DNA of 64,000 nucleotides. It comes from a virus. The stretch lies in the UHGV virus genome UHGV-0141727; one strand, written 5' to 3'. The notes below the pieces were generated by a model. It did no database searches and was not told where the DNA came from. It worked only from the letters and a program-made list of their open reading frames with translations. The position numbers were made by a program, and so were the translations under genes. Below are positions 21,393-62,176 of the stretch, piece after piece. Numbering within the stretch: position 1 is the first letter of the stretch; every line of letters starts with the position of its first letter.

Positions 21393-24300
21393 TTAGGCCG
21401 CATCGGCGATTATTTTACGCAGTTCATCTACCGAGTAACGCGTAGATACCATCCATGCCGGACGGTCAAAGTTCACATCAGCAACCGGGTTTGCTTCAAA
21501 ATTCCAGAAACGCCCGCCAATCTTCTTAATCGCGTCTTTGGCGTTCCGTATTGTCGAGGAACCAGGTTGGTCGGCAATGAGATAAACCGCACCGACGTCC
21601 TCGCTGACGCTCCACCAGCGCCCGCGAACACGCGCCTTAGCGCGAATCGGCTTATCATTGACCACAATGATATAGTCATCATTCGCCGCTTCATCAGCTC
21701 TGGCTTCAGCCACTGCCGCCTGCTCTTCTCTTTTGCTTTCAGCCTGTTCAAGCCTTTCCGCGATCTCTGATTCGGTGGCCCCGCCGTTTTTCAGCGATAC
21801 AAAGTCTTGCCACGTTGCTGATTTGAGCGCATCCGGCAACTCATTCACATAGTCACCGTCTTTCAACTCACGGGCGCGGCGGGTAGCCATTTCTACCAGG
21901 CGATTAACAGAAACAGCATCAGCAAAATCGTCCTTACTAATGTGTTTTTCATCAAATGCATTGATGACAGCCCCCACCTTAATCCACTGTGCTGCCGGTG
22001 ATTCCAGGGGGTTATCAGCCTGGACAATGGCGAGTTTCGCTCCATCTACCCCATTATTCGCCAACTGTTCCAGTGCCGCCCATCCATCTGCATCACTGAG
22101 TGATTTATATTGCTCAAACAATGCATCGCGCCAGGCCACCAGCGCAGAACGTGTTTTTTCGATCTTCGTCTTAATTTTCGCGATCTTGACCTGATTAAAC
22201 ATCCGTTCAATATCATCGATATTGCTAAAGGCTTTCATCCTGCCCTTGAATAAACGGTATGCCAGCACGGTCCTCCAGAATGATTCCAGACCTTCTCCGG
22301 ACGGTTTGCGGAACAAGCTAAGAATATCTTCAGAAGTGACTTTATTAAGCGAACGACCTGACAGACCACGCCCAGCCATCCAGTTTTCGAACTCCTGGGC
22401 AACATCATCCATCGTTGCCTGTGCGCCCCATGCCTGCATTCCCTGGATGTAATCATACCCATACAATGCCTGGAGGAATCCCTCACCGTCCACGATATTC
22501 AGCGGGTTATCACTGGCTTGTATTTTTGCCACTTCACGCTTCAGCGCCTCATCGTTGCCATCTGGATATATCCATCGTTCAGGTGCTATATCCGATGCTC
22601 GCCCGATTTTTTGGCCTATCACGCCATCATAGGCCGATGACAGCGCGATCTGACCATCATCTGTGCGATATGCCCAGTATTTAATAGCTGACCCACCGCC
22701 CCATGCATTACCAGGTTTACCAGCAATAACATTCATTACCCCATTGCGAATAGCATCATAGAACTGATCGCGAGTAAGTATTGTTGATAGCTGGTGGCAC
22801 TGAACACCACGCGCAGCCGTTGCGCGCGATTCAGCTACCCCCTCTTCAAAAGTTACCGCTTCAATCACAGAGTCAAACGGCAATGTAACGATTGACCCCG
22901 GTGATCGAGCGTAACGACTTGCTCTATCCAGCCAGGCGATACGGCAGAGGTATTGTGCTTTTTCACCGTCAATTTTTTCCACCCGGACAATCGCTGTTGT
23001 TTCGCGATCATCAATGACTGCACGGTAATAACTACCTTTATGCAACAGGATATTCTTGTCAGTGCGCATATATTCCTGTGGGTTCTGAATAACATCGATA
23101 CTGATATCCAGCACACCAGACTTAATAGCGCGCTCCACATCACCACGAGAGCGTTTCATTATGGTATCCGCGTCTTTTGCCCTGGTGATCGCAAACCGCA
23201 GCACCCGCGCACGTTTTCTGTAGCTACTCAACTGCTCAAGCGCGAATTTTTGCCCATTCCTGTTCGTACCCGCTTTTATCAGGTCGTCAAGATTTCGCTG
23301 GTAATACTCTATCTGTTCCATCGCGCTTTTCAGTTCTGTCTCCATCATGCCGATATCTTTTCCAGCGGCGTTTGCCGCTTTCAGGTAGATATCGAGTGCA
23401 TTGTTGGCCTCGCGCTGTGCTTTCAGTTTCAGACGTTCTTCACGCTCTTGCGCCTGGCGAGCCATGATTGCGCGGCGTTCTTCCGGGTTTGCCGCCAGCA
23501 TAATGGCGCGTTCATCAGCATCATCCGCATCACCATTGGCGATCTCTGACATGTCGGAGGTCATCACCATCTTGATCCAGTCTTTCTTACGTTTCAGCGT
23601 ATCCAGACGGAAGTCGTCGAATGTGCCTTTGCCACAATAGTAGTGAACATTGACCTTCTCTTGCGGTGAACCTACGCGCGCACCGCGCCCATTTCGTTGG
23701 TCGATACTGGCTGGTGTCCAGGGTAGTGTCAGGTGGTGGATATCGGTTGTCCCGATATGCAGGTTAATACCTACTTCAGCCTTCTTGTTACAGATAATGA
23801 TACGCGTGCGCCCTTCGTTATAGTCGGCGGCAATGCCTTCCATACCCTCAAGGCCAGCATCATTTTTAGCTGAGAGATAATCCTCATATTGGGCAAGTTT
23901 GCTGTAGTAGGTTTCCCATGCCCCTTCTTTGTATTCACCGTTTTTATTCGGAGTAGGTTCAGTCGGCTTATTCACCTTCTTCAGCTTGATGCCGCCAGCC
24001 TGGCTAACGGTCGTCGCATTGATAATGCCTATCTCCTGCTCCGGCATTTGCAGTGCACTGGCGATAATACGGCGCAGCTTCTGGTGCTGGGCTTTTTCAT
24101 CAATGAAGACAATTTGTTTACCGTTCTTCAGACCTTCACGAAGGTTTTCGATCAGCGCGGCATACTTCGGCGGGATGGGGTGTGATACCTGCTGCAGATC
24201 AATCCCGGCGGCAGCAATGGCCTTCAGTATTTCAGCTTCCAGTTCAATGCTGGCACGTATTTCAACATGCGCCGGATGTTCACTAAAGGTGGTCTTCACT

Positions 24301-27300
24301 ACCTTACTGGTGCGCGTACTAACCAGCCCACCAGCGCCGTCTTCTTCGGCCTCGTCTGCATCATCTGCCACTTTACCGCCAGCTACTTTTGGCAGGGCAT
24401 CAGCAATAGCTTTTACCTTGTCTGCAAGCTCAACGGGGAACTGGAATGTAATCGCACTGGCATACAGATCCGGATCTATAGCAACCTTATCCATGTCGCG
24501 GATGATGGAGAAGATGAAATCATCCGGTTTTTCGTTTGTGATATGCCCGTTTTCATCAACCGTCAGCGCATCTTTACTACTTAACTCCTGTGCACGCTTA
24601 CGAAGCTCTTCATAAGCAGCCTCCTGCTCCCCTGTCATCGGGATCTGCAAGGTATTCTCGACAATATCAGGGATTTTAACCGTCGCCCCGACGTCCGCAG
24701 CAGTCTTCAGAGTAGTCCAGCGATGGAAAATACCACGCAGGCCATCAAGGTTCTGGAAGCCAACCAGCCCCTGCTTCTCTTCCACTTCCCCGGAAATTTT
24801 CTGGACCTGAACTGTGGCTGTTTTACCAAACACACGAACGAAATCATCAGGCGTAATGATGCCCATGCGCATCCACTCTTCCTGCGGAATGACAGTAGAC
24901 AGCATGTTGAAGGCATCAATCGGACTGTTCACCAGCGGTGTTGCTGTCAGCATGACTACACCACGCCCGTTGTTGCGTTTCATCATGTACGCAGCTTTTA
25001 CAGCCATGTCGCGGGCCATCTTGGATACTGCCGGGTTAGGCAAATATGCCAGTTGTCCCGCTTCACGCCCGGCATTAAAGGAGTTGCGGTAGTTATGCCC
25101 CTCGTCGGCAATCACGCTATCGAAGTTCATATCCTCAAAGTACGGGATATTCTGCTTCTTCGTTGTACCGGTATTCGCGGCCTGATCCTTAATCTTGTTC
25201 TTCTTCTGCGCATCACGGTGTTTACCGGACGCCAGATCAAGACGCCCCATTTCCACAGCATTAAAGACAGCTTGCTGTGAGTTCTCCTCGATAGTTTTTT
25301 CTCGTAGCGGGATAGACGCGAATTGTTCTTTTGTCATGATGACCGTTCGCCAATTTGACGACGGGATCATGTTCATGCGCTGAACGATAACGGCGCTGGC
25401 GGACTCTTTCACAACATTTCTGGTAAGAGGCTGCCCGTTACTGTCGAGGCGGGGTTCGCCATTTTCATCAAGCACCGGCGCGGTCAGAATATTGCCGTCT
25501 TCATCACGAACTTCATCCAGACCGATAAACATCATATTTGCGAAGGCATCAGCACTGTAGAAGCTCTGTGCCTCGTGATACCAGTTCTGATAAACCGCCT
25601 TCGGAACAACAATACACGTGCGTTTAGTGCGACCTGTTTCGAAGTTATACGCCTCAAGCGCAAGCGCGGTCGTGGTTTTACCCAGCCCGGTACCTAATCC
25701 CATAATGCCGCGACCATCTTCTGACAGGCGACGAACTTCCTCATTCTGATAAGTCAGAGGAATGCGCTTTCCACTAATCCCTTCCAGGCCAAGCGGTGCG
25801 TTAGAGTGCGTGAACGGAATGAAGCCATTGAATGCGTCGTTATACTCGCGGGCTATCTGATCAGCCTGCGGGTGAGTGCGTAACCAGTCGTTAAAACTAA
25901 CTTCCAGTTGAGCAATTTTATCCAGGTACTCGTTAGCGTTCTGCCCACGCGGTTTAACACCGTTCAGGTAGTTTTCTAACTGGTTCAGGAAGCCGTCTTT
26001 ATTGTTGGCCTTCTTGAACTCATTCCCGTTTTTGCCGTTTACGGTTCGTAGCTGATAGCCGGTAAATACCCCGTCCTTACCTTCGTAATCGTCCGGAGAT
26101 ACCAGAATGCCATCGACGACTTTCAGGTCAGGTTCAGTGTACTTAAACTCGTCATAGCCCTGCTCTGCCAGGAACTCTTTTATCAAGCGGCGATCCAGCC
26201 AGCGGGCGTTCAGATTAACGGTGACTTTATTTAGTGGCGTGAAAATGCGTTTCTCTTCGATTTTCGCCAACTGACGCTCAAAGTTCGATTTCTGCTCACC
26301 TGTTGACGCATCACGCCAGCCCATCAGCAATGCTGTTTTGGTTGCAATATCGCCGCTGGTGGCGCGGTCCATCGGCAGCAGGCAGCCATACCCATCAATA
26401 GCGATATCATCAAATTTCGCCAGGTATTCAAGGGCCGCGTCGTCGTCCTCTGGCAGTTCACCAGCAAACGCCTCACGAAAGTCGCCCAGCGTTATAGGAT
26501 TAAGGGCTACATCACTGAAAAGATGTGCTATCACTTGTTCCGGACGTGTAAAGTCAATACCGGCAGCACCATCCGTTACATCAAGTCGCCCTGCCAGAAG
26601 GTCAGAAGTGGAACCATCCTGTTTCACGTTGCCAGTGAACGTCATCCAGTTTTTAGCTCCAGCTTCTGCAAGCCCATTCAGCTTAATCGCGTGCGGTGGT
26701 CCATACTTCGCAACTTCTGCTGCCGCCAGGCGGGATACATCTGCCAGTTTGGCATCAACGTTCACCCCCAGGTTACGCAAATCAAGTGCCTTGTTGATCA
26801 ACTGCCCTATCAACGCACCGCGCATAACGCGCTCCCTGTCTTTTTCTCGCTGTTTGCCAGCAAAGCGAATCATTGCTGCCACTTCATCACTGACAACCGA
26901 TGGATAGTCAGACGCGATCGCCGATATCTGGTCCCATGACAAAGCCAGAATCCCGTTTGTTGACTGGAACGCGATCTGCAGATCGCCAAACGTCGAAACA
27001 CCATATCGACTTACATCAAGCGCGGAGGATTTGGTTGTCGTGTCCTTAACCCATTTCAGGCCATCAAACTCATGCCAGATACCGCCTACAAGGCGCTTAT
27101 CCCCTACTTTTGCGCCCTGCCATGCCTGGGTAGTTACTCCGAGCAAATCCCAATTAATACGGCTTTCAAAACGGCGTGATAGAGCGGTTTTCATCGACTC
27201 ATTGGATACACGGCCATCCTTTTTCACCACCAGGGTATTGCGGAAGCTGGTGCGTTCCATGTCGCCATAAACAAATCGCTTCCCTTCGGTTGTAAACCAT

Positions 27301-28244
27301 TTCCCTTTGAGGAAGGTATCCCAAAGGACGTTTGCCGATTTGAGCGTTGCATCATCCGTGTCGGGGATCATCTCCAGGAAGGTTTCCGGGTGTTTACGCA
27401 ATACCCATACGTCCACCACGGTATCTGTACCGGATTCGCTGAACGTACCAGAAGGCATACGATGTGCGCCCAAAAATTCCGCTTTACGGCTGACTTTATC
27501 GCGCAATTTTTTGTATTTCGTACCATCAGTCATGCCATTCGGCACCACCAATACAATTAGTCCACCAGGCTTAACCTTGTCGATCGTGCGCAGCACAAAA
27601 TAATTGCCAACGTTCTTCTCGTTTGCATATGCCGGATCAAGCCCGGCGACGCCGGAACGCCCTTCGCCAAACGGTACGTTACCAACTGCGTGGTCATACA
27701 TTGCATCTTTCGCCGCCAGCGCCTCAAACGCCCCGATATTCACATCATCTTCCGGGTGCAAAAGCTGGTTTATTCGACCGGAGATCGGAGACAGTTCGGC
27801 GCTGGTCATTATCATGCCCTGCCGTTTTGTCTCCTGGAAAATACCTGTGCCTGCTGACGGTTCCAGTACGTGACCGCTATCAATACCGTAGTCGCCGAAG
27901 AGATCCCATATACCTTCTGCCATAAACTGTGGCGTATAGTATTCGTATTGGCTGCCCTCACCATCTGTCAGGCCGCCTTCACCGGTATACCCGGCAAGAA
28001 TCTGACGCTGTTCGTCAGTTAATTTCGCCCCATCGAAGCCGGGCGGAAGGGAATTAAGAAGATCTACTGCGGCGTTGTTTGCTGCCCGGCGTGTTTTCTG
28101 AATACTGACGCCATCGACTTTCTTAACGCCAAAGGTCACTACAGCTCGCGGTTTATGCAACCGACTAACAATTTCAATCAGCGCCCCAATGCTGGTGGCC
28201 TGGCTAATTGAATCAATTATTTTGTCCAAAGGAAGCCCCCTCAA
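21393..28244 (-). CDS. darB: DarB-like giant protein: N6-adenine methyltransferase domain fused to a DExH (SF2) helicase
   Basis: 2283 aa; SAM motif VLEPSAGTGIF, NVPFG (NPPF-like), helicase motif I GLGTGLGKTT, motif II DEGHNY, motif VI QRNGRGAR. Confidence 0.7.
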   Translation of the reverse strand: MRGLPLDKIIDSISQATSIGALIEIVSRLHKPRAVVTFGVKKVDGVSIQKTRRAANNAAVDLLNSLPPGFDGAKLTDEQRQILAGYTGEGGLTDGEGSQYEYYTPQFMAEGIWDLFGDYGIDSGHVLEPSAGTGIFQETKRQGMIMTSAELSPISGRINQLLHPEDDVNIGAFEALAAKDAMYDHAVGNVPFGEGRSGVAGLDPAYANEKNVGNYFVLRTIDKVKPGGLIVLVVPNGMTDGTKYKKLRDKVSRKAEFLGAHRMPSGTFSESGTDTVVDVWVLRKHPETFLEMIPDTDDATLKSANVLWDTFLKGKWFTTEGKRFVYGDMERTSFRNTLVVKKDGRVSNESMKTALSRRFESRINWDLLGVTTQAWQGAKVGDKRLVGGIWHEFDGLKWVKDTTTKSSALDVSRYGVSTFGDLQIAFQSTNGILALSWDQISAIASDYPSVVSDEVAAMIRFAGKQREKDRERVMRGALIGQLINKALDLRNLGVNVDAKLADVSRLAAAEVAKYGPPHAIKLNGLAEAGAKNWMTFTGNVKQDGSTSDLLAGRLDVTDGAAGIDFTRPEQVIAHLFSDVALNPITLGDFREAFAGELPEDDDAALEYLAKFDDIAIDGYGCLLPMDRATSGDIATKTALLMGWRDASTGEQKSNFERQLAKIEEKRIFTPLNKVTVNLNARWLDRRLIKEFLAEQGYDEFKYTEPDLKVVDGILVSPDDYEGKDGVFTGYQLRTVNGKNGNEFKKANNKDGFLNQLENYLNGVKPRGQNANEYLDKIAQLEVSFNDWLRTHPQADQIAREYNDAFNGFIPFTHSNAPLGLEGISGKRIPLTYQNEEVRRLSEDGRGIMGLGTGLGKTTTALALEAYNFETGRTKRTCIVVPKAVYQNWYHEAQSFYSADAFANMMFIGLDEVRDEDGNILTAPVLDENGEPRLDSNGQPLTRNVVKESASAVIVQRMNMIPSSNWRTVIMTKEQFASIPLREKTIEENSQQAVFNAVEMGRLDLASGKHRDAQKKNKIKDQAANTGTTKKQNIPYFEDMNFDSVIADEGHNYRNSFNAGREAGQLAYLPNPAVSKMARDMAVKAAYMMKRNNGRGVVMLTATPLVNSPIDAFNMLSTVIPQEEWMRMGIITPDDFVRVFGKTATVQVQKISGEVEEKQGLVGFQNLDGLRGIFHRWTTLKTAADVGATVKIPDIVENTLQIPMTGEQEAAYEELRKRAQELSSKDALTVDENGHITNEKPDDFIFSIIRDMDKVAIDPDLYASAITFQFPVELADKVKAIADALPKVAGGKVADDADEAEEDGAGGLVSTRTSKVVKTTFSEHPAHVEIRASIELEAEILKAIAAAGIDLQQVSHPIPPKYAALIENLREGLKNGKQIVFIDEKAQHQKLRRIIASALQMPEQEIGIINATTVSQAGGIKLKKVNKPTEPTPNKNGEYKEGAWETYYSKLAQYEDYLSAKNDAGLEGMEGIAADYNEGRTRIIICNKKAEVGINLHIGTTDIHHLTLPWTPASIDQRNGRGARVGSPQEKVNVHYYCGKGTFDDFRLDTLKRKKDWIKMVMTSDMSEIANGDADDADERAIMLAANPEERRAIMARQAQEREERLKLKAQREANNALDIYLKAANAAGKDIGMMETELKSAMEQIEYYQRNLDDLIKAGTNRNGQKFALEQLSSYRKRARVLRFAITRAKDADTIMKRSRGDVERAIKSGVLDISIDVIQNPQEYMRTDKNILLHKGSYYRAVIDDRETTAIVRVEKIDGEKAQYLCRIAWLDRASRYARSPGSIVTLPFDSVIEAVTFEEGVAESRATAARGVQCHQLSTILTRDQFYDAIRNGVMNVIAGKPGNAWGGGSAIKYWAYRTDDGQIALSSAYDGVIGQKIGRASDIAPERWIYPDGNDEALKREVAKIQASDNPLNIVDGEGFLQALYGYDYIQGMQAWGAQATMDDVAQEFENWMAGRGLSGRSLNKVTSEDILSLFRKPSGEGLESFWRTVLAYRLFKGRMKAFSNIDDIERMFNQVKIAKIKTKIEKTRSALVAWRDALFEQYKSLSDADGWAALEQLANNGVDGAKLAIVQADNPLESPAAQWIKVGAVINAFDEKHISKDDFADAVSVNRLVEMATRRARELKDGDYVNELPDALKSATWQDFVSLKNGGATESEIAERLEQAESKREEQAAVAEARADEAANDDYIIVVNDKPIRAKARVRGRWWSVSEDVGAVYLIADQPGSSTIRNAKDAIKKIGGRFWNFEANPVADVNFDRPAWMVSTRYSVDELRKIIADAA

Positions 28245-28340
28245 AACCGTTAAATCCGCCTTAAGCGGTACGGTTTGAGAGGGTATGGAGTGTGTTAATT
28301 TCGCAGAATCACACCCCGAAGGTTCTTACTCAAAAGGGGA

Positions 28341-57547: not shown

Positions 57548-58294
57548 TTACAGACCGCGTTTTTTGCGAATGCGGATAGACTTACGGCGGCGAGTGTTAG
57601 CTATCGACGTATGTGCCTTACGGCGAGCTTTTTTCAGCGCCTGCTTTTGTAAGGACGTCATGCGACGCGGGCGCGGGCGTTTGCGGATGATAGTAACCTT
57701 GCCATCACGAACGACTTTTTTGCTGACAGCTTCGAGCATTGCGGCATTGCCACCAGCAACGGTGTAAATCGCAATGGCTTCTTCCATCATTTCACTATCG
57801 CTTTCTGACAGTGCGTCAAATACGCGTTCTGCTGCCGCGTCATCTTCGTCATCGATCATCTCGGTGACGTCGTCCTGATCAGCGCCCAGGGCCACAGCCG
57901 CGTTAGCCAACGCCGCGAGTGCGTCGTTATATGCGTCAACCTGTTCGTCGGTCAGTTCCGTGTCTTCGTCAATGTCGGCCAGGCCAGCCATTGTGATTGC
58001 CAGCGCATCAAATGAATCCGCTTCAGGGTCGCCATCTTCTACCCAGCTCGCCAGCATTGAAGCTGCCAGACTGCGGATGTCACTTAGTGCACGGGATTCC
58101 ACCGCTTCCATCATTGCGGCTTCGATATCCGCGCCATCGGTTCCATTCTTGGCACTTTCCAGGATGGCGTTATCGCCACTTTCAAAACAACCAGAATCTT
58201 TGGCGCTTTCCAGTATGGCTGTATCTGCGTTACCGGCTGTTTTGCCTGCAAATAGCGCGCGCATGAATGGATCAACAACAGAATAGTTTTTCAT
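57548..58294 (-). CDS. phage protein with acidic core and highly basic C-terminus (248 aa)
   Basis: D/E-rich middle; C-terminal RKRPRPRRM...RRRKSIRIRKKRGL. Confidence 0.3.
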   Translation of the reverse strand: MKNYSVVDPFMRALFAGKTAGNADTAILESAKDSGCFESGDNAILESAKNGTDGADIEAAMMEAVESRALSDIRSLAASMLASWVEDGDPEADSFDALAITMAGLADIDEDTELTDEQVDAYNDALAALANAAVALGADQDDVTEMIDDEDDAAAERVFDALSESDSEMMEEAIAIYTVAGGNAAMLEAVSKKVVRDGKVTIIRKRPRPRRMTSLQKQALKKARRKAHTSIANTRRRKSIRIRKKRGL

Positions 58295-58337: not shown

Positions 58338-59993
58338 TCAACGCATCAGGATTGGTTTGCCGAGGATTCGACGAGCAGTGCCTGTTGGACACACGGACCA
58401 TTCCACTTCCCACAAGTCGATGTCTTTTTGAGTTACCTTGACCACATAAGGGTCAGAACCTTGAGATTCATCGCGTGGTGTAACCAGCGCACCAGCCGCA
58501 TAAAAACGGTCCAGAAGATCTGTCAGTGCGTTAGTCAGACTTTCCTGCGTTACGCCATCAGGTTCATGCTTGATTGCCTGAGCAACTTCATAGAAATTGC
58601 GGGCAATTGCATTCATCAGTGATGAAACGTGCTGGAATCGCAGATAGTTATTTTTGCTGTATGTCGTCAGGGAGTCGTCGATGTAGACAGAACCATCCGC
58701 TGCAACGCTTACTGGGTTAATACGAGCGGTCACATACGCTTCACGATCGATTGTGCCAATCCCGGAGAGTCTGGTGATGTTCTGGCGATCAATGATTGCG
58801 CGAGACAGACCAGCCGGGGCGTAATGCCAGCCGCCTACATCAGACACAAGCGCAACGCCTTTAGCTTTTGCCACAAATGCGTCGCAACTGATTCCGTAAA
58901 CCACATTCATACCGCTGAAAGTGTCACGGCATGAGTACGGGAAGTGATAACGTGCAGCCTGGTGGGATTTGCCGAAACCATGTGATTTAGCTTCCGCGAT
59001 AGCGTTATCACCAGTCTGAGCACATTTCAGGTCGTAGAACATATCCACGCGAACGTCTTCTGCCAGCGAATTAATTTTTGCCAGCACGGATGCGTCGTAG
59101 CAGCCCATAGAAAGCAGCGCGGTATAATTAACTTCTGACGCTTCGAGAACCTCTAACGCTTTCAGATAATCATCAGTGTCAATTGAGGACAGATCGCCAT
59201 CTGTACCGCCTTCAAACGCTACATCTTCGAAAGTCAGCAAGTGAGCGGAGTCTTCGGCACCATCAGCCAGTACAGCTCCAAGCCTGGTGGACTGACTTTC
59301 TAACAACGCAGGAATCCATGCTGGCTGGCCCATATCGTTCGTTGCATCCGGATCGAAAGAAACCTGGTAGCTTTCCAGCGTTTCTACAGAACCATCGGTC
59401 TGTGTCTCTTTCAGTTCCAGAGTGAACAGGTCATTTTCTTCGTCCTCACGGGTCAGTGATAACGTGCGGTTTGTCGAAGCATCACCGTCCTTTATGTAGA
59501 AAATAGCCAGTTCACTGCCGGAAATTTCAGGTGTTTCGCTTGCAGCGAAAGTTACCGGAGAAGTGGCTCCAGAAACGGCACGAACGGTCAGTGTATCGCC
59601 GATATTTACCGTTGCTTCGGTCGGAGCAATTTGCAGAGTTTTTGCTGACTTGGTGCTTTTCGACCTGGCCTGAACAGAAACGGCAATGCCCGGTACTTTC
59701 ATGTCTTTTGCGCATACGCGAACCACATAACCGGTGCCGCCTTTTACTGCGCGTTCAACGTGGCGATATGGTTCAAATGCGGCCCCGGTGCGCGGGTGAA
59801 GAGGTGAACCTAACACGCTCTGATAGTTGGCTGCTGTAACCTGCAAAACCTTGCCTGGTGCCCCTCTGCGGGAAATAACCAACCCGGCAAAGACGGAAGC
59901 ACCGCCAGATGTGTTGGACAGGGTAGCATCGGCATTTACGTCCGCTACCGCAACGCCCGCCGCCTGACCAACAGAAAAACCAATTTTATTCAT
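58338..59993 (-). CDS. putative tail sheath protein
   Basis: 551 aa, size and position as P1 gene 22 relative to the capsid-like gene. Confidence 0.4.
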   Translation of the reverse strand: MNKIGFSVGQAAGVAVADVNADATLSNTSGGASVFAGLVISRRGAPGKVLQVTAANYQSVLGSPLHPRTGAAFEPYRHVERAVKGGTGYVVRVCAKDMKVPGIAVSVQARSKSTKSAKTLQIAPTEATVNIGDTLTVRAVSGATSPVTFAASETPEISGSELAIFYIKDGDASTNRTLSLTREDEENDLFTLELKETQTDGSVETLESYQVSFDPDATNDMGQPAWIPALLESQSTRLGAVLADGAEDSAHLLTFEDVAFEGGTDGDLSSIDTDDYLKALEVLEASEVNYTALLSMGCYDASVLAKINSLAEDVRVDMFYDLKCAQTGDNAIAEAKSHGFGKSHQAARYHFPYSCRDTFSGMNVVYGISCDAFVAKAKGVALVSDVGGWHYAPAGLSRAIIDRQNITRLSGIGTIDREAYVTARINPVSVAADGSVYIDDSLTTYSKNNYLRFQHVSSLMNAIARNFYEVAQAIKHEPDGVTQESLTNALTDLLDRFYAAGALVTPRDESQGSDPYVVKVTQKDIDLWEVEWSVCPTGTARRILGKPILMR

Positions 59994-60027
59994 GCTGCTC
60001 TTTTCCTCTTTATCGAGCGGATTAGAG

Positions 60028-60055
60028 AAGTCTCCCCATTTGCATGGGGAGACTT
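60028..60055. other. stable intergenic stem-loop
   Basis: AAGTCTCCCCAT-ttgc-ATGGGGAGACTT; U-tract only on the plus strand. Confidence 0.4.
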
Positions 60056-60058
60056 TTA

Positions 60059-60337
60059 TCAGGCTTCGCCGACCGTGAAGCTGTCACCTACCGTCACTTC
60101 TTTGGTTGACGGTTCAACGCTGACGGCGCTTACGCTCTTTGGGGCTTCATTAACCGTTACGGTGCATGTTGCCGTTTTATTGCCATCGGTGGTTTTGATA
60201 GTGAGCACTGCCTGACCTGCTTTAAGTGCGGTACAGGTTTTGCCATCTACGCTCACAATTTCCGGATGATCTGACTCGATAGTGAAAGATTTATCTGTCG
60301 CATCGGAAGGTGTAATAGTTACCTGAATATCAGCCAT
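60059..60337 (-). CDS. bacterial Ig-like (Big_2) domain protein
   Basis: GGAGG 5 nt upstream of ATG at 60337; ...KAGQAVLTIKTTDGNKTATCTVTV is Big_2-like; ORF track start 60349 is probably the RBS. Confidence 0.6.
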   Translation of the reverse strand: MADIQVTITPSDATDKSFTIESDHPEIVSVDGKTCTALKAGQAVLTIKTTDGNKTATCTVTVNEAPKSVSAVSVEPSTKEVTVGDSFTVGEA

Positions 60338-60478
60338 TTTTTCCTCCATATAGCCCCTTATTCAGGGGCTGGTCTTACTTCTTTTTGGGTGTTTTTCGTG
60401 TCTTTGAAGTGCTCGCGGCGATAGTTTCACCTTCGTTTACTTCAATTGCCGTTGGTGAAACTGACACGTTCGCCACTG

Positions 60479-62176
60479 CTACTTTTTTTCGTTGATTTGC
60501 CCGCTCAACATGTCAATCGCACCTTCTTTCGAACGTGTCAGGCGAAGGCGAGTGAAATAGTTCTCACCGTTGCGCGGATGCACATCGTTGATTGCTTTGC
60601 CCCAAAAAGTGGTGCGGTTCACTAGGGCTGGATTTGTTTCGTGGACATACGGAATAGCAGGCACAGCATCACCTGCGACCAGGCCTGCTTTACCAATGCC
60701 TTCGCCACGACCATAGAAATAGATGTCGTCCAGGCCGAAGTCGTAGCCATATTTCTGGAATTGTTTGCAGATAGGCTTCGGCACTTCGTAGATACGAATG
60801 GAACCAAACAGGGTGCCGATGTATTGAATGTACGGCGACTGTACATAGCCCGGTGCCAACTGGAAGTGCTGCGGCGGTAAGGAACGCAGGAAGTTAGCAG
60901 CATCGCCACCAGCAAAGCCACCACGGATACCGGTGGTCAGGGTGCGGTCAGCCATCTCCTGTGACAGCGCGTTCACAACATGGCGAATTAAACCAACCCA
61001 CGACTCGTAGTTCTGCGCTTCTGGCAGTGCCACATCAAATTCACGACCGTAAACGGTGTGGAATACCAGAGTGCGCAGGCGCATCATATCGATTTCGTGG
61101 GAAATCCAGTTGCGCATTGCAGAGAATTGCAATGCTGCCAGTTCGAGTCCGTGTTCACGGCTCAGGTCAGATGCAGCCATAACCGTATGTTCGGATGCGA
61201 TCACGTACTCCGACGGGCGCAGGGCGTAATTGCGCATGGACTGGTTAATGACTGGTATCAGGTTCGGATTGCGTTCAATGTTGATTTCAACCTGAACAGC
61301 GATTTCAGTGCCTTCTGCTGGTGCTTCATTAAAGGTGATATCGATAACGCCGGTATCGTATCGAACCTTTGCCGTCACAGAGAAAGAGTTGCCGTTGACG
61401 TCTTTGTCGTTGAAATACAGGTTGCCGTCACCATCATCTACTTTGGACGGTTTGCGGTTAATCAGCAGTTTGTTGTAGCCCTGGCGCAGCGGGCAGGCCT
61501 GGCCTTCGAAGTTCTGGATATCAAACTGGAAGGTGGTTTTTCTGCCATCGCCTTTTTCGGTCAGGATGTACAGGCGTTTCATCTGCGAATACACGCCAGC
61601 AGACTGCATGTTCAGTTCATCGCCCTGCTCGAATGTACCGAATTTTGTACCAGCAACGTTGGTCAGCTCGTAAATATTGGTTTCATCACGATCACAAGGG
61701 ATAAACGTACATGCGTCGCTGGTGGCTGCGCCGAGAGAAGCAGGCAGGATCAGTGCGGCATATTGTGCAACCTTCATTACACCATCGGAGGTGCGCATGT
61801 CCTTGGCTACTGATTCAAACATGGCTTTGCCAGCGCCTTCATGCGTCTCTTTAGCGGACTCCATCATCAGGCGCTCAAGTGCCACATGGGCGTTGGCTAA
61901 TACATCGCTTGCCGGATAATGCCCATACTGGCGTTTGTATTCATGAATAGACATGGCCCAGCTACCAATGATCTGGCGAGCTGCTTCTGGTTCAACGCCT
62001 TCAAACATAGGCTCTTTCTGGATAGCTTTTTCCAGGTTAGCCATCATCACTTCGTTGTCGGCAATCATGTTACCGGCAGCATCAGTGGTTGGATCGACGG
62101 TCATAGCCATGACGCTTGCCGCCCGATTCATAATCTCGCGCTCGCGCTTACGAGCTGGCTCAATGTTCTTGTTCAC
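60479..62176 (-). CDS. putative major capsid protein with N-terminal scaffold-like region
   Basis: 565 aa, charged/helical N-terminal 100 aa; ends in slippery A_AAA_AAG; Ig-like gene downstream. Confidence 0.45.
   Translation of the reverse strand: MNKNIEPARKREREIMNRAASVMAMTVDPTTDAAGNMIADNEVMMANLEKAIQKEPMFEGVEPEAARQIIGSWAMSIHEYKRQYGHYPASDVLANAHVALERLMMESAKETHEGAGKAMFESVAKDMRTSDGVMKVAQYAALILPASLGAATSDACTFIPCDRDETNIYELTNVAGTKFGTFEQGDELNMQSAGVYSQMKRLYILTEKGDGRKTTFQFDIQNFEGQACPLRQGYNKLLINRKPSKVDDGDGNLYFNDKDVNGNSFSVTAKVRYDTGVIDITFNEAPAEGTEIAVQVEINIERNPNLIPVINQSMRNYALRPSEYVIASEHTVMAASDLSREHGLELAALQFSAMRNWISHEIDMMRLRTLVFHTVYGREFDVALPEAQNYESWVGLIRHVVNALSQEMADRTLTTGIRGGFAGGDAANFLRSLPPQHFQLAPGYVQSPYIQYIGTLFGSIRIYEVPKPICKQFQKYGYDFGLDDIYFYGRGEGIGKAGLVAGDAVPAIPYVHETNPALVNRTTFWGKAINDVHPRNGENYFTRLRLTRSKEGAIDMLSGQINEKK

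What the first reader, a model, noticed from the sequence alone, without database searches (positions are those of the whole stretch)
60337..60491. Slippery A_AAA_AAG heptamer at the capsid stop with a split Ig-like domain
The capsid-like ORF ends ...GAA AAA AAG TAG. A -1 slip on A_AAA_AAG (60482-60488) would append 35 residues (VAVANVSVSPTAIEVNEGETIAASTSKTRKTPKKK) whose start resembles the first strand of a Big_2 Ig-like domain. The rest of a Big_2 domain is encoded by the downstream gene (60059-60337), which has its own strong RBS and is in the capsid zero frame. Between them lies a GC hairpin (60352-60370). This is either an active frameshift producing a tagged capsid variant plus a separate Ig-like decoration protein, or the remnant of a frameshift-dependent capsid-Ig fusion.
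Basis: seen in the sequence. Interest (0 to 1): 0.55.

Follow-up and report, generated by a model that had tools for sequence, protein, structure and literature searches.

The report
Capsid frameshift adds split Ig tag
The major capsid gene of this D6/P1-like phage-plasmid almost certainly uses a programmed -1 ribosomal frameshift to give some capsid subunits a 35-residue tail; that tail is the missing first strands of an Ig-like domain whose remainder is a separate small protein, and this split layout is conserved, so it may be a way of docking a decoration protein.

Summary
All genes are on the minus strand. The 565-aa capsid gene (a P1 gp23 homologue) ends GAA AAA AAG TAG. The heptamer A_AAA_AAG (60482-60488) is in the right phase, and a 35-codon -1 ORF follows it.

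Comparative data strongly support a real programmed frameshift:
- All 24 D6-like relatives keep the heptamer and the -1 ORF.
- Four more diverged lineages, with different flanking codons, keep the same heptamer in front of a homologous -1 peptide. One of these ORFs has no start codon at all.
- A sister lineage encodes the same peptide in frame.
- Predicted hairpins begin 1-11 nt downstream in most lineages.

It is the conserved stem-loop that follows the capsid gene across the family.

The "remnant" reading is rejected. The split Big_2 layout is conserved and under purifying selection: strands A-A'-half B sit on the capsid tail, and the rest is a 92-aa protein. That protein carries a second such fragment at its own C-terminus. 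A third copy lies in the tail sheath.

My inference, untested, is that these fragments are docking peptides completed in trans by the strand-deficient Ig protein.

Frameshift-appended Ig domains are a known kind. The conserved split is a new variant.

The parts
60479..62176 (-). Major capsid protein gene (565 aa), homologue of P1 gp23 and D6 orf51; the zero-frame stop TAG is at 60479-60481
   Evidence: ORF list. It is 87% aa identical to the phage D6 major capsid protein and 44% to P1 gp23 over 98% of its length.
60482..60488 (-). Slippery heptamer A_AAA_AAG, covering the last two sense codons plus the preceding A, directly followed by the stop codon
   Evidence: Sequence and phase check. It is invariant in 24 D6-like loci. 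It is also present in four further diverged lineages, L051, L111, L113 and L114, despite different flanking codons.
60378..60482 (-). -1 frame extension of 35 codons (VAVANVSVSPTAIEVNEGETIAASTSKTRKTPKKK), with stop TAA at 60375-60377. It comprises Big_2 strands A, A' and the first half of B, plus a Lys-rich tail
   Evidence: The ORF is open in all 24 D6-like relatives and 35 codons long in 23 of them; L013 carries a 1-nt deletion that changes the tail. Spliced to the Ig core, it completes Pfam Big_2 positions 1-79. Homologous peptides occur in frame in L029, L030 and L112. Variable columns by codon position are 10/4/15, and pN/pS is 0.4-0.55.
60415..60476 (-). Predicted frameshift-stimulating stem-loop: a 7-bp GUGGCGA/UCGCCGC stem plus a 9-bp inner stem, starting 5 nt after the heptamer
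   Evidence: RNAfold z = -2.8 and -2.7 on downstream sequence only. The RNAalifold consensus over D6-like sequences shows one pair as AU/GU/GC, while the outer stem never varies. Synonymous divergence here is about half that of the flanks. This is a prediction only.
60352..60370 (-). Intergenic hairpin AGCCCCU-GAAUA-AGGGGCU between the -1 stop and the Ig gene's ribosome-binding site. It is not a frameshift stimulator
   Evidence: The position is conserved while the sequence differs: CCCCCG-GCUAA-CGGGGG in L029 and a longer stem in D6. An equivalent hairpin follows the capsid gene in P1 and in lineages without the Ig module. There is no U-tract, and the terminator scan does not call it on this strand.
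60343..60347 (-). Shine-Dalgarno GGAGG, 5 nt upstream of the Ig gene's ATG
   Evidence: Sequence. Homologues start MADIQ, MANIQ or MPDI at this ATG.
60059..60337 (-). Ig-like protein gene (92 aa): a Big_2 domain lacking strands A and A' and the first half of B, followed by a second A-A'-B fragment
   Evidence: Pfam Big_2 at 29.9 bits, covering HMM 22-79 only. The family has 21 members of 91-96 aa, all with the same N- and C-terminal boundaries. The AlphaFold model has pLDDT 88, with beta strands assigned only at residues 18-62. The core matches Big_2 structures and the lambda gpV Ig domain. pN/pS is 0.11-0.15.
60062..60145 (-). C-terminal tail of the Ig protein (residues 65-92, APKSVSAVSVEPSTKEVTVGDSFTVGEA): a second Big_2 A-A'-B fragment, cut at the same point as the capsid extension
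   Evidence: Conserved in all 21 family members, with G84 and V89 invariant. pN/pS is 0.10-0.24, apart from 0.62 in the close window-L002 pair. Spliced to the core, it also gives Big_2 positions 2-79. No strands are assigned here in the monomer model.
60030..60053 (-). 10-bp hairpin (GUCUCCCCAU-GCAA-AUGGGGAGAC) followed by UUCUCU, after the Ig gene; terminator-like
   Evidence: Sequence. Stem changes between the window and D6 groups look compensatory by eye in the alignment. The simple terminator scan does not call it.
58338..59993 (-). Tail sheath gene (551 aa, P1 gp22 homologue), the next gene downstream
   Evidence: 44% identity to P1 gp22 and 80% to the D6 sheath.
59574..59642 (-). Motif inside a sheath insertion (residues 118-140, KTLQIAPTEATVNIGDTLTVRAV) that resembles the A-A'-B fragments
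   Evidence: The insertion of about 35 aa is absent from P1 gp22 and from every sheath examined in lineages without the free Ig gene. An HMM built from the fragments scores 17.3 bits on D6, 15.0 on L017 and 9.4 on the window, and below 0 on sheaths lacking the insertion. It is the best non-training hit in the six-frame window, E = 0.067. Pfam Big_2 does not detect it.

Best explanation
What it is. The window is a D6-like P1-family phage-plasmid. Most ribosomes translating its major capsid gene stop at TAG and make the 565-aa protein. A fraction slip back one base on A_AAA_AAG, aided by the adjacent stop codon and probably by a stem-loop that starts 5 nt downstream. Those ribosomes continue for 35 codons and make a 600-aa capsid variant.

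What the tail is. The added tail is not a whole Ig domain. It carries only the first ~22 residues of a Big_2 domain (strands A, A' and half of B) plus a Lys-rich end.

Where the rest is. The remainder of that domain is a separate, well-expressed 92-aa protein encoded immediately downstream. That protein ends in a second copy of the same fragment.

What is shown:
- The signal, the ORF and the split are all present.
- All three are conserved across lineages.
- The same peptide is fused in frame in sister lineages.

What is inferred:
- The capsid tail is a docking peptide that the strand-deficient Ig protein completes in trans by beta-strand complementation.
- Frameshift frequency would then set how many capsid subunits can be decorated.
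- The Ig protein's own C-terminal fragment, and the similar loop in the sheath, would offer further docking sites.

My confidence in the frameshift itself is about 0.85-0.9. My confidence in the docking mechanism is about 0.35-0.4.
For: Frameshift:
- The heptamer is in phase and invariant in 24 D6-like loci that differ by about 21% in DNA, while the stop codon varies among TAG, TGA and TAA.
- A_AAA_AAG is also kept in L051, L111, L113 and L114, where the preceding residues differ (EEEKK, DTGKK, GDEKK, GEAKK). In three of these the zero-frame stop lies two codons further on. Each time a -1 ORF follows that encodes a homologous V.V.G.S....G[DE] peptide.
- The L051 -1 ORF has no ATG, GTG or TTG at all. 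In L114 the first start-like codon is at position 16.
- L029, L030, L050 and L112 encode the homologous peptide in frame with the capsid and lack the heptamer at that position.
- Two lineages have only six A's before the G, which is the minimal ribosomal heptamer rather than a long slippage run.
- Predicted hairpins start 1-11 nt downstream in most lineages. A related Rosenbergiella-like lineage has G_GGA_AAG, a 4-nt spacer, an 11-bp stem and an ~80-codon -1 ORF.
- A_AAA_AAG is the most shift-prone heptamer in E. coli and is absent from its most highly expressed genes (PMC5009743).

Function of the split:
- Pfam coverage is 22-79 for the core alone and 1-79 when the tail is spliced on.
- The N- and C-terminal boundaries are identical in 21 Ig proteins down to ~35% identity.
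- pN/pS is 0.11-0.15 for the core and 0.10-0.24 for its C-terminal fragment.
- AlphaFold gives the in-frame tail of P0026 pLDDT ~33 with no secondary structure, so it does not pack on the capsid protein in cis.
- AlphaFold assigns no strands to the Ig protein's N-terminal 17 or C-terminal 30 residues, so there is no cis completion.
- A donor-like motif occurs in the sheath only in lineages that have the free Ig gene.
- Complete in-frame Big_2 fusions in P0060, P0061, P0071 and P0075 show that the capsid C-terminus can display an Ig domain.
Against: - No protein-level data exist. Neither the 600-aa species nor its abundance has been observed.
- The stimulatory hairpin is only predicted. Its main stem never varies, so covariation cannot be tested. 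Two lineages, L017 and L111, show no significant fold.
- Protein-level constraint on the tail is modest: pN/pS is 0.4-0.55, and only 29 columns vary, split 10/4/15 by codon position.
- In D6-type sequences an ATG overlaps the stop (TGATG), so coupled re-initiation is conceivable there.
- For docking, nothing was tested physically.
- The tail and the Ig C-fragment show no lineage-specific co-variation (same-lineage identity 0.37 vs 0.36, p = 0.35).
- The lineages with a sheath insertion form one clade, so co-occurrence with the Ig gene may be shared ancestry.
- High pLDDT (91-94) for the Ig protein's C-terminal fragment, with no assigned strands, is unexplained.
Confidence: 0.55

Rival explanations
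1. The frameshift is real, but the tail does not dock the Ig protein. It would act on its own, for example as a flexible Lys-rich tail, or as a strand that augments a neighbouring capsid subunit. The 92-aa protein would bind elsewhere or not be part of the virion. The half-domain fragments would then be scars of out-of-register recombination in a tandem Big_2 array, kept for some other reason.
For: - No lineage-specific co-variation between the tail and the Ig C-fragment.
- Tail constraint is weaker than on the Ig protein (pN/pS 0.4-0.55).
- Ig modules are known to move by non-homologous recombination and to land in or out of frame (PMC5009743).
- The Ig ORF aligns over 93% of its length to tandem Big_2 proteins, as an out-of-register window would.
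- Other lineages carry unrelated acidic or Ala-rich C-terminal tails, so the capsid C-terminus tolerates many appendages.
Against: - The truncation points of tail, Ig N-terminus and Ig C-terminus are complementary, and they are conserved down to ~35% identity.
- The C-terminal fragment is under purifying selection.
- Every lineage with the tail fragment also has the strand-deficient Ig gene directly downstream, and no lineage has one without the other.
Confidence: 0.3
2. The 33-35-codon ORF is an independent small gene (as annotated for D6 orf50). It would be translated by termination-reinitiation at the GTG or ATG beside the capsid stop and would not be fused to the capsid protein.
For: - D6-type sequences have ATG overlapping the stop (TGATG), and window-type sequences have GTG at codon 3.
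- The D6 record annotates orf50 as a separate CDS.
Against: - L051's homologous -1 ORF has no start codon. L114's first start-like codon is mid-peptide.
- There is no Shine-Dalgarno sequence before the window's GTG.
- The heptamer is invariant in five lineages although synonymous alternatives exist.
- Sister lineages have the peptide covalently fused in frame to the capsid.
Confidence: 0.06
3. The same extended product arises mainly by transcriptional slippage: RNA polymerase adds one A in the A7 run, rather than the ribosome slipping.
For: The window has a run of seven A's. An added A gives exactly the same protein sequence (read).
Against: - L111 and L114 have only six A's before the G, yet keep the exact A_AAA_AAG phase.
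- The 3' G and the reading phase are conserved, which matters for tRNA-Lys re-pairing but not for polymerase slippage.
- Hairpins lie at frameshift-typical spacing.
- By general knowledge, efficient bacterial slippage needs runs of about nine or more.
Confidence: 0.06
4. The layout is a decaying remnant of a former capsid-Ig frameshift fusion, or an assembly or sequencing indel, with no present function.
For: - The Big_2 domain is interrupted by a stop, a hairpin and a new start.
- Some relatives have an uninterrupted in-frame Big_2.
- One E. coli record annotates a 599-aa capsid.
Against: - The heptamer and an open -1 ORF are kept in all 24 D6-like loci examined, and the module is present in 121 plasmid records and 101 complete E. 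coli genomes.
- The split is conserved in diverged lineages and is under purifying selection.
- The 599-aa annotation comes from an assembly with many homopolymer deletions: A5 instead of A7, plus others nearby.
Confidence: 0.03

Closest known systems
Phage T3 gene 10 (10A/10B) and Lactobacillus phage A2 major head protein: -1 frameshift near the end of the capsid gene adds a C-terminal Ig-like extension (PMC5009743; Fraser et al. 2006, from memory)
   Same: - A -1 frameshift at the 3' end of the major capsid gene gives two capsid species from one gene.
- The extension is Ig-related.
- Relatives show the same appendage in frame.
   Different: - Here the extension is only the first ~22 residues of a Big_2 domain, not a whole one.
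- The rest of the domain is a separate gene product.
- The slip site abuts the stop codon.
E. coli dnaX gamma/tau frameshift cassette
   Same: - The same heptamer, A_AAA_AAG, is decoded by the single tRNA-Lys.
- A stem-loop follows a 5-6-nt spacer.
- The host is the same.
   Different: - No consistent upstream Shine-Dalgarno-like stimulator.
- dnaX shifting truncates the product, whereas here it extends it.
- A stop codon directly follows the heptamer in the window.
Ig-bearing phage decoration proteins (T4 Hoc, T5 pb10, N4 decoration protein)
   Same: A small, separately encoded protein with an Ig-like fold that presumably sits on the outside of the capsid.
   Different: - Those proteins carry a dedicated capsid-binding domain and complete Ig domains (PMC5292684, PMC10385173, listed).
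- The protein here has no other domain and its Ig fold is incomplete.
- P1 itself is reported to lack decoration proteins (PMC9024508).
Donor-strand complementation in chaperone-usher pilins, and engineered split Ig-like pairs such as SpyTag/SpyCatcher (both from memory)
   Same: On the inferred model, an Ig-like fold missing edge strands is completed by a short peptide supplied by another polypeptide. A subunit that carries both an acceptor and a donor could form chains.
   Different: - The missing part is N-terminal (A, A', half of B), not the C-terminal G strand.
- No chaperone or isopeptide chemistry is evident.
- Complementation is not demonstrated here.
Phage D6 orf51, orf50 and orf49 (NC_050154) and PGAP-annotated D6-like plasmids
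   Same: The same genes in the same order, at 79% DNA identity.
   Different: Those records annotate orf50 as an independent hypothetical protein, or leave it out. None marks a frameshift or notes the split domain.

Membership tests
-1 programmed ribosomal frameshift site (bacterial, dnaX type) | Slippery heptamer X_XXY_YYZ in phase with the upstream frame | tested here: met
   A_AAA_AAG at 60482-60488 is in phase. The same holds in 8 lineage representatives.
-1 programmed ribosomal frameshift site (bacterial, dnaX type) | An open -1 frame that is conserved and encodes a conserved peptide, reachable only through the shift | tested here: met
   The -1 ORF is open in all 24 D6-like loci, at 35 codons in 23 of them (L013 has a 1-nt deletion in the tail). 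Homologous -1 ORFs occur in L051, L111, L113 and L114. L051 has no start codon. In-frame equivalents occur in L029, L030 and L112.
-1 programmed ribosomal frameshift site (bacterial, dnaX type) | Downstream stimulatory RNA structure 5-9 nt from the heptamer | tested here: inconclusive
   A stem-loop is predicted in the window (z = -2.7 to -2.8), with the strong stem 5 nt downstream, and in L113, L114, L051 and L075. It is not significant in L017 or L111. The main stem never varies, so there is almost no covariation to test.
-1 programmed ribosomal frameshift site (bacterial, dnaX type) | Upstream Shine-Dalgarno-like stimulator | tested here: not met
   The 12 nt upstream in the window are GCAAATCAACGA. 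SD-like strings appear only in some lineages. This feature is optional for the class.
-1 programmed ribosomal frameshift site (bacterial, dnaX type) | Trans-frame protein detected | not testable with these tools
   Needs virion mass spectrometry or a reporter assay.
Frameshift-appended C-terminal Ig-like domains on phage structural proteins | The extension encodes a complete Ig-like domain | tested here: not met
   The 35-aa tail alone gives no Pfam hit. It corresponds to Big_2 HMM positions 1-21 only.
Frameshift-appended C-terminal Ig-like domains on phage structural proteins | The appendage sits at the C-terminus of a major structural protein, with in-frame versions in relatives | tested here: met
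   It follows the capsid protein's C-terminus. In-frame short versions are P0026 and P0028, and complete Big_2 versions are P0060, P0061, P0071 and P0075.
Pfam Big_2 (PF02368) | Score above the gathering threshold | tested here: met
   The Ig ORF scores 29.9-31.2 bits against a cut-off of 22.8. The model's core matches Big_2 structures.
Pfam Big_2 (PF02368) | A complete domain within one polypeptide | tested here: not met
   Only HMM positions 22-79 lie in the Ig ORF. Positions 1-79 are covered only after splicing on the capsid tail or the ORF's own C-terminal fragment.
Donor-strand complementation systems | The acceptor subunit has an incomplete Ig-like fold that it cannot complete by itself | tested here: inconclusive
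   The sequence lacks strands A and A'. The AlphaFold monomer shows strands only at residues 18-62 and no pairing of the C-terminal fragment. The linker from the last strand to the fragment is only ~6 residues, which by inference is too short to reach back. No coordinates were available to inspect.
Donor-strand complementation systems | The donor peptide physically completes the acceptor fold in trans | not testable with these tools
P1 gp23-type major capsid protein | Full-length homology to P1 gp23, and synteny with the sheath gene (gp22) | tested here: met
   44% identity over 98% of the length. The order capsid, sheath, gp21 homologue, pmgG homologue matches P1 and D6.

The most novel reading that the evidence does not exclude
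D6-like phages would use a natural split Ig-domain docking system. Short A-A'-half-B peptides are displayed on the capsid (dosed by the frameshift), on the tail sheath (as an inserted loop) and on the C-terminus of the Ig protein itself. Each would be completed in trans by the strand-deficient 92-aa Big_2 protein. That would attach the protein non-covalently to head and tail, and possibly let it form head-to-tail chains. This would be a phage counterpart of pilus donor-strand exchange.
Probability: 0.3. Interest if true: 0.85.

Novelty: new variant of a known kind. Interest (0 to 1): 0.6.

Why it matters
- Annotation. The frameshift is unannotated in phage D6 and in the plasmid and RefSeq records sampled. 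The module is found in 121 plasmid records, and 101 of 5,426 complete E. coli genomes carry it. A virion protein species is therefore probably missing from current annotation.
- Evolution. One capsid family contains, side by side, in-frame and frameshifted versions of the same appendage, plus a second frameshifted appendage of another type. That makes it a good natural series for studying how programmed frameshifts arise and set stoichiometry.
- Mechanism. If the conserved split Big_2 works by trans complementation, it would be a new way of attaching decoration proteins. It could also serve as a ready-made peptide/partner pair for display on P1-type particles.

Tried and rejected
I rejected the hairpin at 60352-60370. 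It lies after the -1 stop, and equivalent hairpins follow the capsid gene in P1 and in lineages without the module.
- Relative with an uninterrupted D6-like junction. None was found among 121 plasmids. The two low-identity Salmonella hits (NZ_MK356557/8) and the E. coli FWSEC0003 '599-aa capsid' are assemblies with many homopolymer indels.
- Chimeric tail-plus-Ig AlphaFold job.
- Cis circular permutation of the Ig protein. The model assigns no strands to residues 63-92 and the linker is only ~6 residues, so this is judged unlikely, though without coordinates.
- Co-variation between the capsid tail and the Ig C-fragment across 9 lineages. No signal (p = 0.35).
- Pfam on the sheath insertion. 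No Big_2 hit. Only the purpose-built fragment HMM detects it.
- Rfam on 59900-60700. Nothing near a gathering score.
- Upstream SD-like stimulator. Inconsistent between lineages.
- Literature. The D6 genome paper (PMC5800970) is not held. Searches for a D6 frameshift, or for split or strand-complemented Ig decoration in phages, found nothing.
Full report
**What is in the sequence**

All genes here are on the minus strand. The ORF at 60479-62176 encodes a 565-aa protein ending ...LSGQINEKK, with codons GAA AAA AAG TAG. The heptamer A_AAA_AAG lies at 60482-60488, in X_XXY_YYZ phase. A -1 shift reads 35 further codons, VAVANVSVSPTAIEVNEGETIAASTSKTRKTPKKK, and stops at TAA 60375-60377.

Downstream come, in order:
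- a hairpin at 60352-60370;
- a GGAGG ribosome-binding site;
- a 92-aa ORF at 60059-60337;
- a terminator-like hairpin at 60030-60053;
- the next gene, at 58338-59993.

The heptamer alone is unremarkable: 27 copies in the window against 19 +/- 4 expected.

**Identity of the locus**

The region is 79% identical in DNA to phage D6, a P1-like plasmid prophage of E. coli. D6 has the same gene order: major capsid protein (orf51), a 34-aa 'hypothetical' orf50, a 'structural protein with Ig domain' (orf49), then the tail sheath.

The region is 98% identical to several E. coli and E. marmotae plasmids of about 90 kb. The module occurs in 121 PLSDB plasmids and in 101 of 5,426 complete E. coli genomes, always on plasmids.

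The capsid protein is 44% identical to P1 gp23 over its full length. P1 itself has only a 60-nt spacer between genes 23 and 22 and no Ig gene. It is reported to lack decoration proteins (PMC9024508).

**Is the split Ig domain real?**

Yes, on the Pfam evidence:
- The 92-aa ORF passes the Big_2 gathering score, but the match covers only HMM positions 22-79.
- Splicing the first 21 residues of the -1 peptide onto the core gives a gap-free 1-79 match, and the score rises from 31.2 to 39.4 bits.
- The ORF's own last 28 residues (APKSVSAVSVEPSTKEVTVGDSFTVGEA) are a second copy of the same A-A'-half-B fragment. Spliced on, they also restore positions 2-79.

An AlphaFold model of the ORF (21-sequence alignment, pLDDT 88) has a Big_2-like core. 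Its best structural matches are Big_2 domains and the Ig domain of lambda gpV. DSSP assigns strands only to residues 18-62 and none to the N-terminal 17 or C-terminal 30 residues.

**Evidence that the frameshift is programmed**

1. All 24 D6-like loci retrieved keep the heptamer and an open -1 ORF, 35 codons long in 23 of them. This holds although the DNA differs by about 21% and the stop codon varies among TAG, TGA and TAA.

2. A search with the capsid protein gave a graded series of relatives. Their genomic contexts show four further lineages in which the capsid C-terminus is quite different but A_AAA_AAG is retained in phase:

   | Lineage | Capsid C-terminus (zero frame) | -1 peptide |
   |---|---|---|
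   | L051 | ...TTDEEEKKSE* | VGVTGVSVSSDGQELSEGDSFAIE |
   | L111 | ...DTGKKSE* | VRVTGLSVLPTSLAVAVGDTIAFV... |
   | L114 | ...GEAKKSE* | VRVTGVIAEPAENVEVSVGEKLAT... |
   | L113 | ...GDEKK* | VSVTGISVSQATLECSPGDNVLFVD |

   Each -1 ORF encodes a homologous peptide.

3. L051's -1 ORF has no ATG, GTG or TTG, so it can only be reached by shifting. L114's first start-like codon is at position 16.

4. In the sister lineage (L029, L050, L030, L112; capsids P0026 and P0028) the same peptide is fused in frame...GTSGTVVEGVTLSPASITVSAGDEITAGNTKKDS*. It is followed by the same stop, hairpin and separate Ig gene.

5. Two lineages have only six A's before the G. That fits ribosomal slippage rather than polymerase slippage.

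6. RNA folding predicts a stem-loop starting 5 nt after the heptamer in the window (z about -2.7). Comparable structures appear in most other lineages. The main stem never varies, so covariation is uninformative. Synonymous divergence in this stretch is about half that of the flanks (pS 0.29 vs 0.55-0.70).

7. A Rosenbergiella-like relative (L075) has G_GGA_AAG at its capsid stop, then a 4-nt spacer, a perfect 11-bp hairpin and an ~80-codon Ala/Gln/Lys-rich -1 ORF. That ORF resembles the in-frame Ala-rich tails of other members. Frameshifting at the capsid C-terminus therefore seems to recur in this family.

A_AAA_AAG is the most shift-prone heptamer in E. coli and is avoided in its highly expressed genes (PMC5009743). 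From general knowledge, a stop codon directly after a slippery site also promotes shifting.

**Why it is not a remnant or an error**

- The Ig protein family (21 members, 91-96 aa, down to ~35% identity) always starts in the middle of strand B. It always ends 7-9 residues after the conserved Gly of the second fragment.
- pN/pS is 0.11-0.15 for the core and 0.10-0.24 for the C-terminal fragment, apart from 0.62 in the close window-L002 pair. The capsid tail is less constrained, at 0.4-0.55 with variable columns 10/4/15 by codon position.
- No lineage has the tail fragment without the strand-deficient Ig gene, or the reverse.
- The only 'uninterrupted' D6-like record, a 599-aa capsid in E. coli FWSEC0003, is an assembly with many homopolymer deletions. 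Two Salmonella records are similarly degraded.

**How it probably works**

Shown:
- The signal, the two products implied by it, and the conserved complementary truncation points.
- That the capsid C-terminus can carry a whole Big_2 domain, since P0060, P0061, P0071 and P0075 have one in frame.

Inferred: the tail is a docking peptide that the 92-aa protein completes in trans. Five observations support this.
- In the AlphaFold model of P0026, the in-frame tail is disordered (pLDDT ~33) while the capsid core is confident. The tail therefore does not pack in cis.
- The Ig protein's C-terminal fragment follows the last core strand after only ~6 residues. By my reasoning that is too short to fold back to the A-strand position, so it would have to act on another molecule.
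- L113 encodes two acceptor proteins, one of them without a C-terminal fragment.
- The tail sheath of D6-like phages has a ~35-aa insertion, absent from P1 and from every examined lineage without the Ig gene, that contains a motif matching the fragments.
- An HMM of the fragments scores that motif at 17.3, 15.0 and 9.4 bits in D6, L017 and the window. It scores sheaths without the insertion below zero.

Against:
- There are no physical data.
- There is no lineage-specific co-variation.
- Pfam does not recognise the sheath motif.
- The lineages concerned form one clade, so co-occurrence could be inheritance.

**Other elements**

The hairpin at 60352-60370 is conserved in position, with different stem sequences between lineages. 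It corresponds to the hairpin that follows the capsid gene in P1 and in relatives without the module. It is most likely a transcript-end or attenuator structure that sets capsid expression relative to downstream genes, but this was not tested. It has no U-tract. Rfam finds nothing relevant.

**Comparison with what is known**

Frameshift-appended Ig-like extensions on phage capsid and tail proteins are established, for example in T3 and A2 (reviewed in PMC5009743). The slip site is the dnaX heptamer. This locus is a new, unannotated example of that kind.

It differs in three ways:
- The frameshift adds only the first strands of the domain.
- The rest of the domain is a free protein.
- The arrangement is conserved, with further copies of the fragment on the Ig protein and in the sheath.

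Searches of the held literature found no description of a D6 capsid frameshift, or of split or strand-complemented Ig decoration in phages. The D6 genome paper itself could not be read.

**Verdict**

| Item | Assessment |
|---|---|
| Observation | Confirmed |
| Programmed -1 frameshift | Very likely (about 0.85-0.9) |
| 'Remnant' reading | Rejected |
| Docking by trans complementation | Attractive but untested (about 0.3-0.4) |
| Novelty | New variant of a known kind |
| Interest | 0.6 |

Noticed in passing
window 59538-59666 (-), sheath residues ~110-152; motif at 59574-59642: The D6-like tail sheath has a ~35-aa insertion relative to P1 gp22. It contains a motif (KTLQIAPTEATVNIGDTLTVRAV) like the Big_2 A-A'-B fragments on the capsid tail and on the Ig protein. 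Sheaths of lineages without the free Ig gene lack it.
   Followed up: partly
L075:5190-5480 (IMG/VR UViG_2890906962_000004, Rosenbergiella-like): This capsid gene ends ...ACG GGA AAG TGA. That gives a G_GGA_AAG heptamer, a 4-nt spacer, a perfect 11-bp hairpin and an ~80-codon -1 ORF rich in Ala, Gln and Lys. It looks like a second, independent frameshifted capsid appendage in the same family. Other members carry similar Ala-rich tails in frame (P0038, L078).
   Followed up: partly
L113:2142-2776 (Logan SRR11077323_23890): This lineage has two strand-deficient Big_2 genes after the frameshift tail: a 68-aa core-only protein with no C-terminal fragment, and a 91-aa protein (P0116) that has one.
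   Followed up: no
window 60347-60349 (-): An in-frame ATG lies four codons upstream of the Ig gene's start and would give MEEKMADIQ... (96 aa). It overlaps the GGAGG site, and homologues start at the downstream ATG, so it is probably not used.
   Followed up: partly
L115 (NZ_CP031917.1, E. coli FWSEC0003 plasmid); also L027 and L028 (NZ_MK356558/7): Public assemblies with many homopolymer deletions. In FWSEC0003 the slippery run reads A5 instead of A7, which creates an artefactual 599-aa 'capsid protein' annotation and breaks the Ig and sheath genes.
   Followed up: yes
L013:4686-4800 (IMG/VR UViG_2531839449_000024): A one-base deletion in the A-run inside the tail's Lys-rich end changes it to ...KKQSRSKAKTRP* while keeping the A-A'-B part. 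This is either a real variant or a sequencing error.
   Followed up: no
window 57628-57634 and 57715-57721 (-), inside the gp21-like gene 57548-58294: Two more AAAAAAG heptamers lie close together in the next structural gene. By my arithmetic neither is in X_XXY_YYZ phase with that ORF.
   Followed up: partly
window 21396-28325 (-): A very long open frame (about 2,310 aa stop to stop) turned up in the six-frame translation. It was not examined.
   Followed up: no
model mc8b23a287de7 (Ig protein residues 71-90): AlphaFold gives the C-terminal half-domain fragment high confidence (pLDDT 91-94), yet DSSP assigns it no strand. Coordinates could not be inspected, so its predicted conformation is unexplained.
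   Followed up: no
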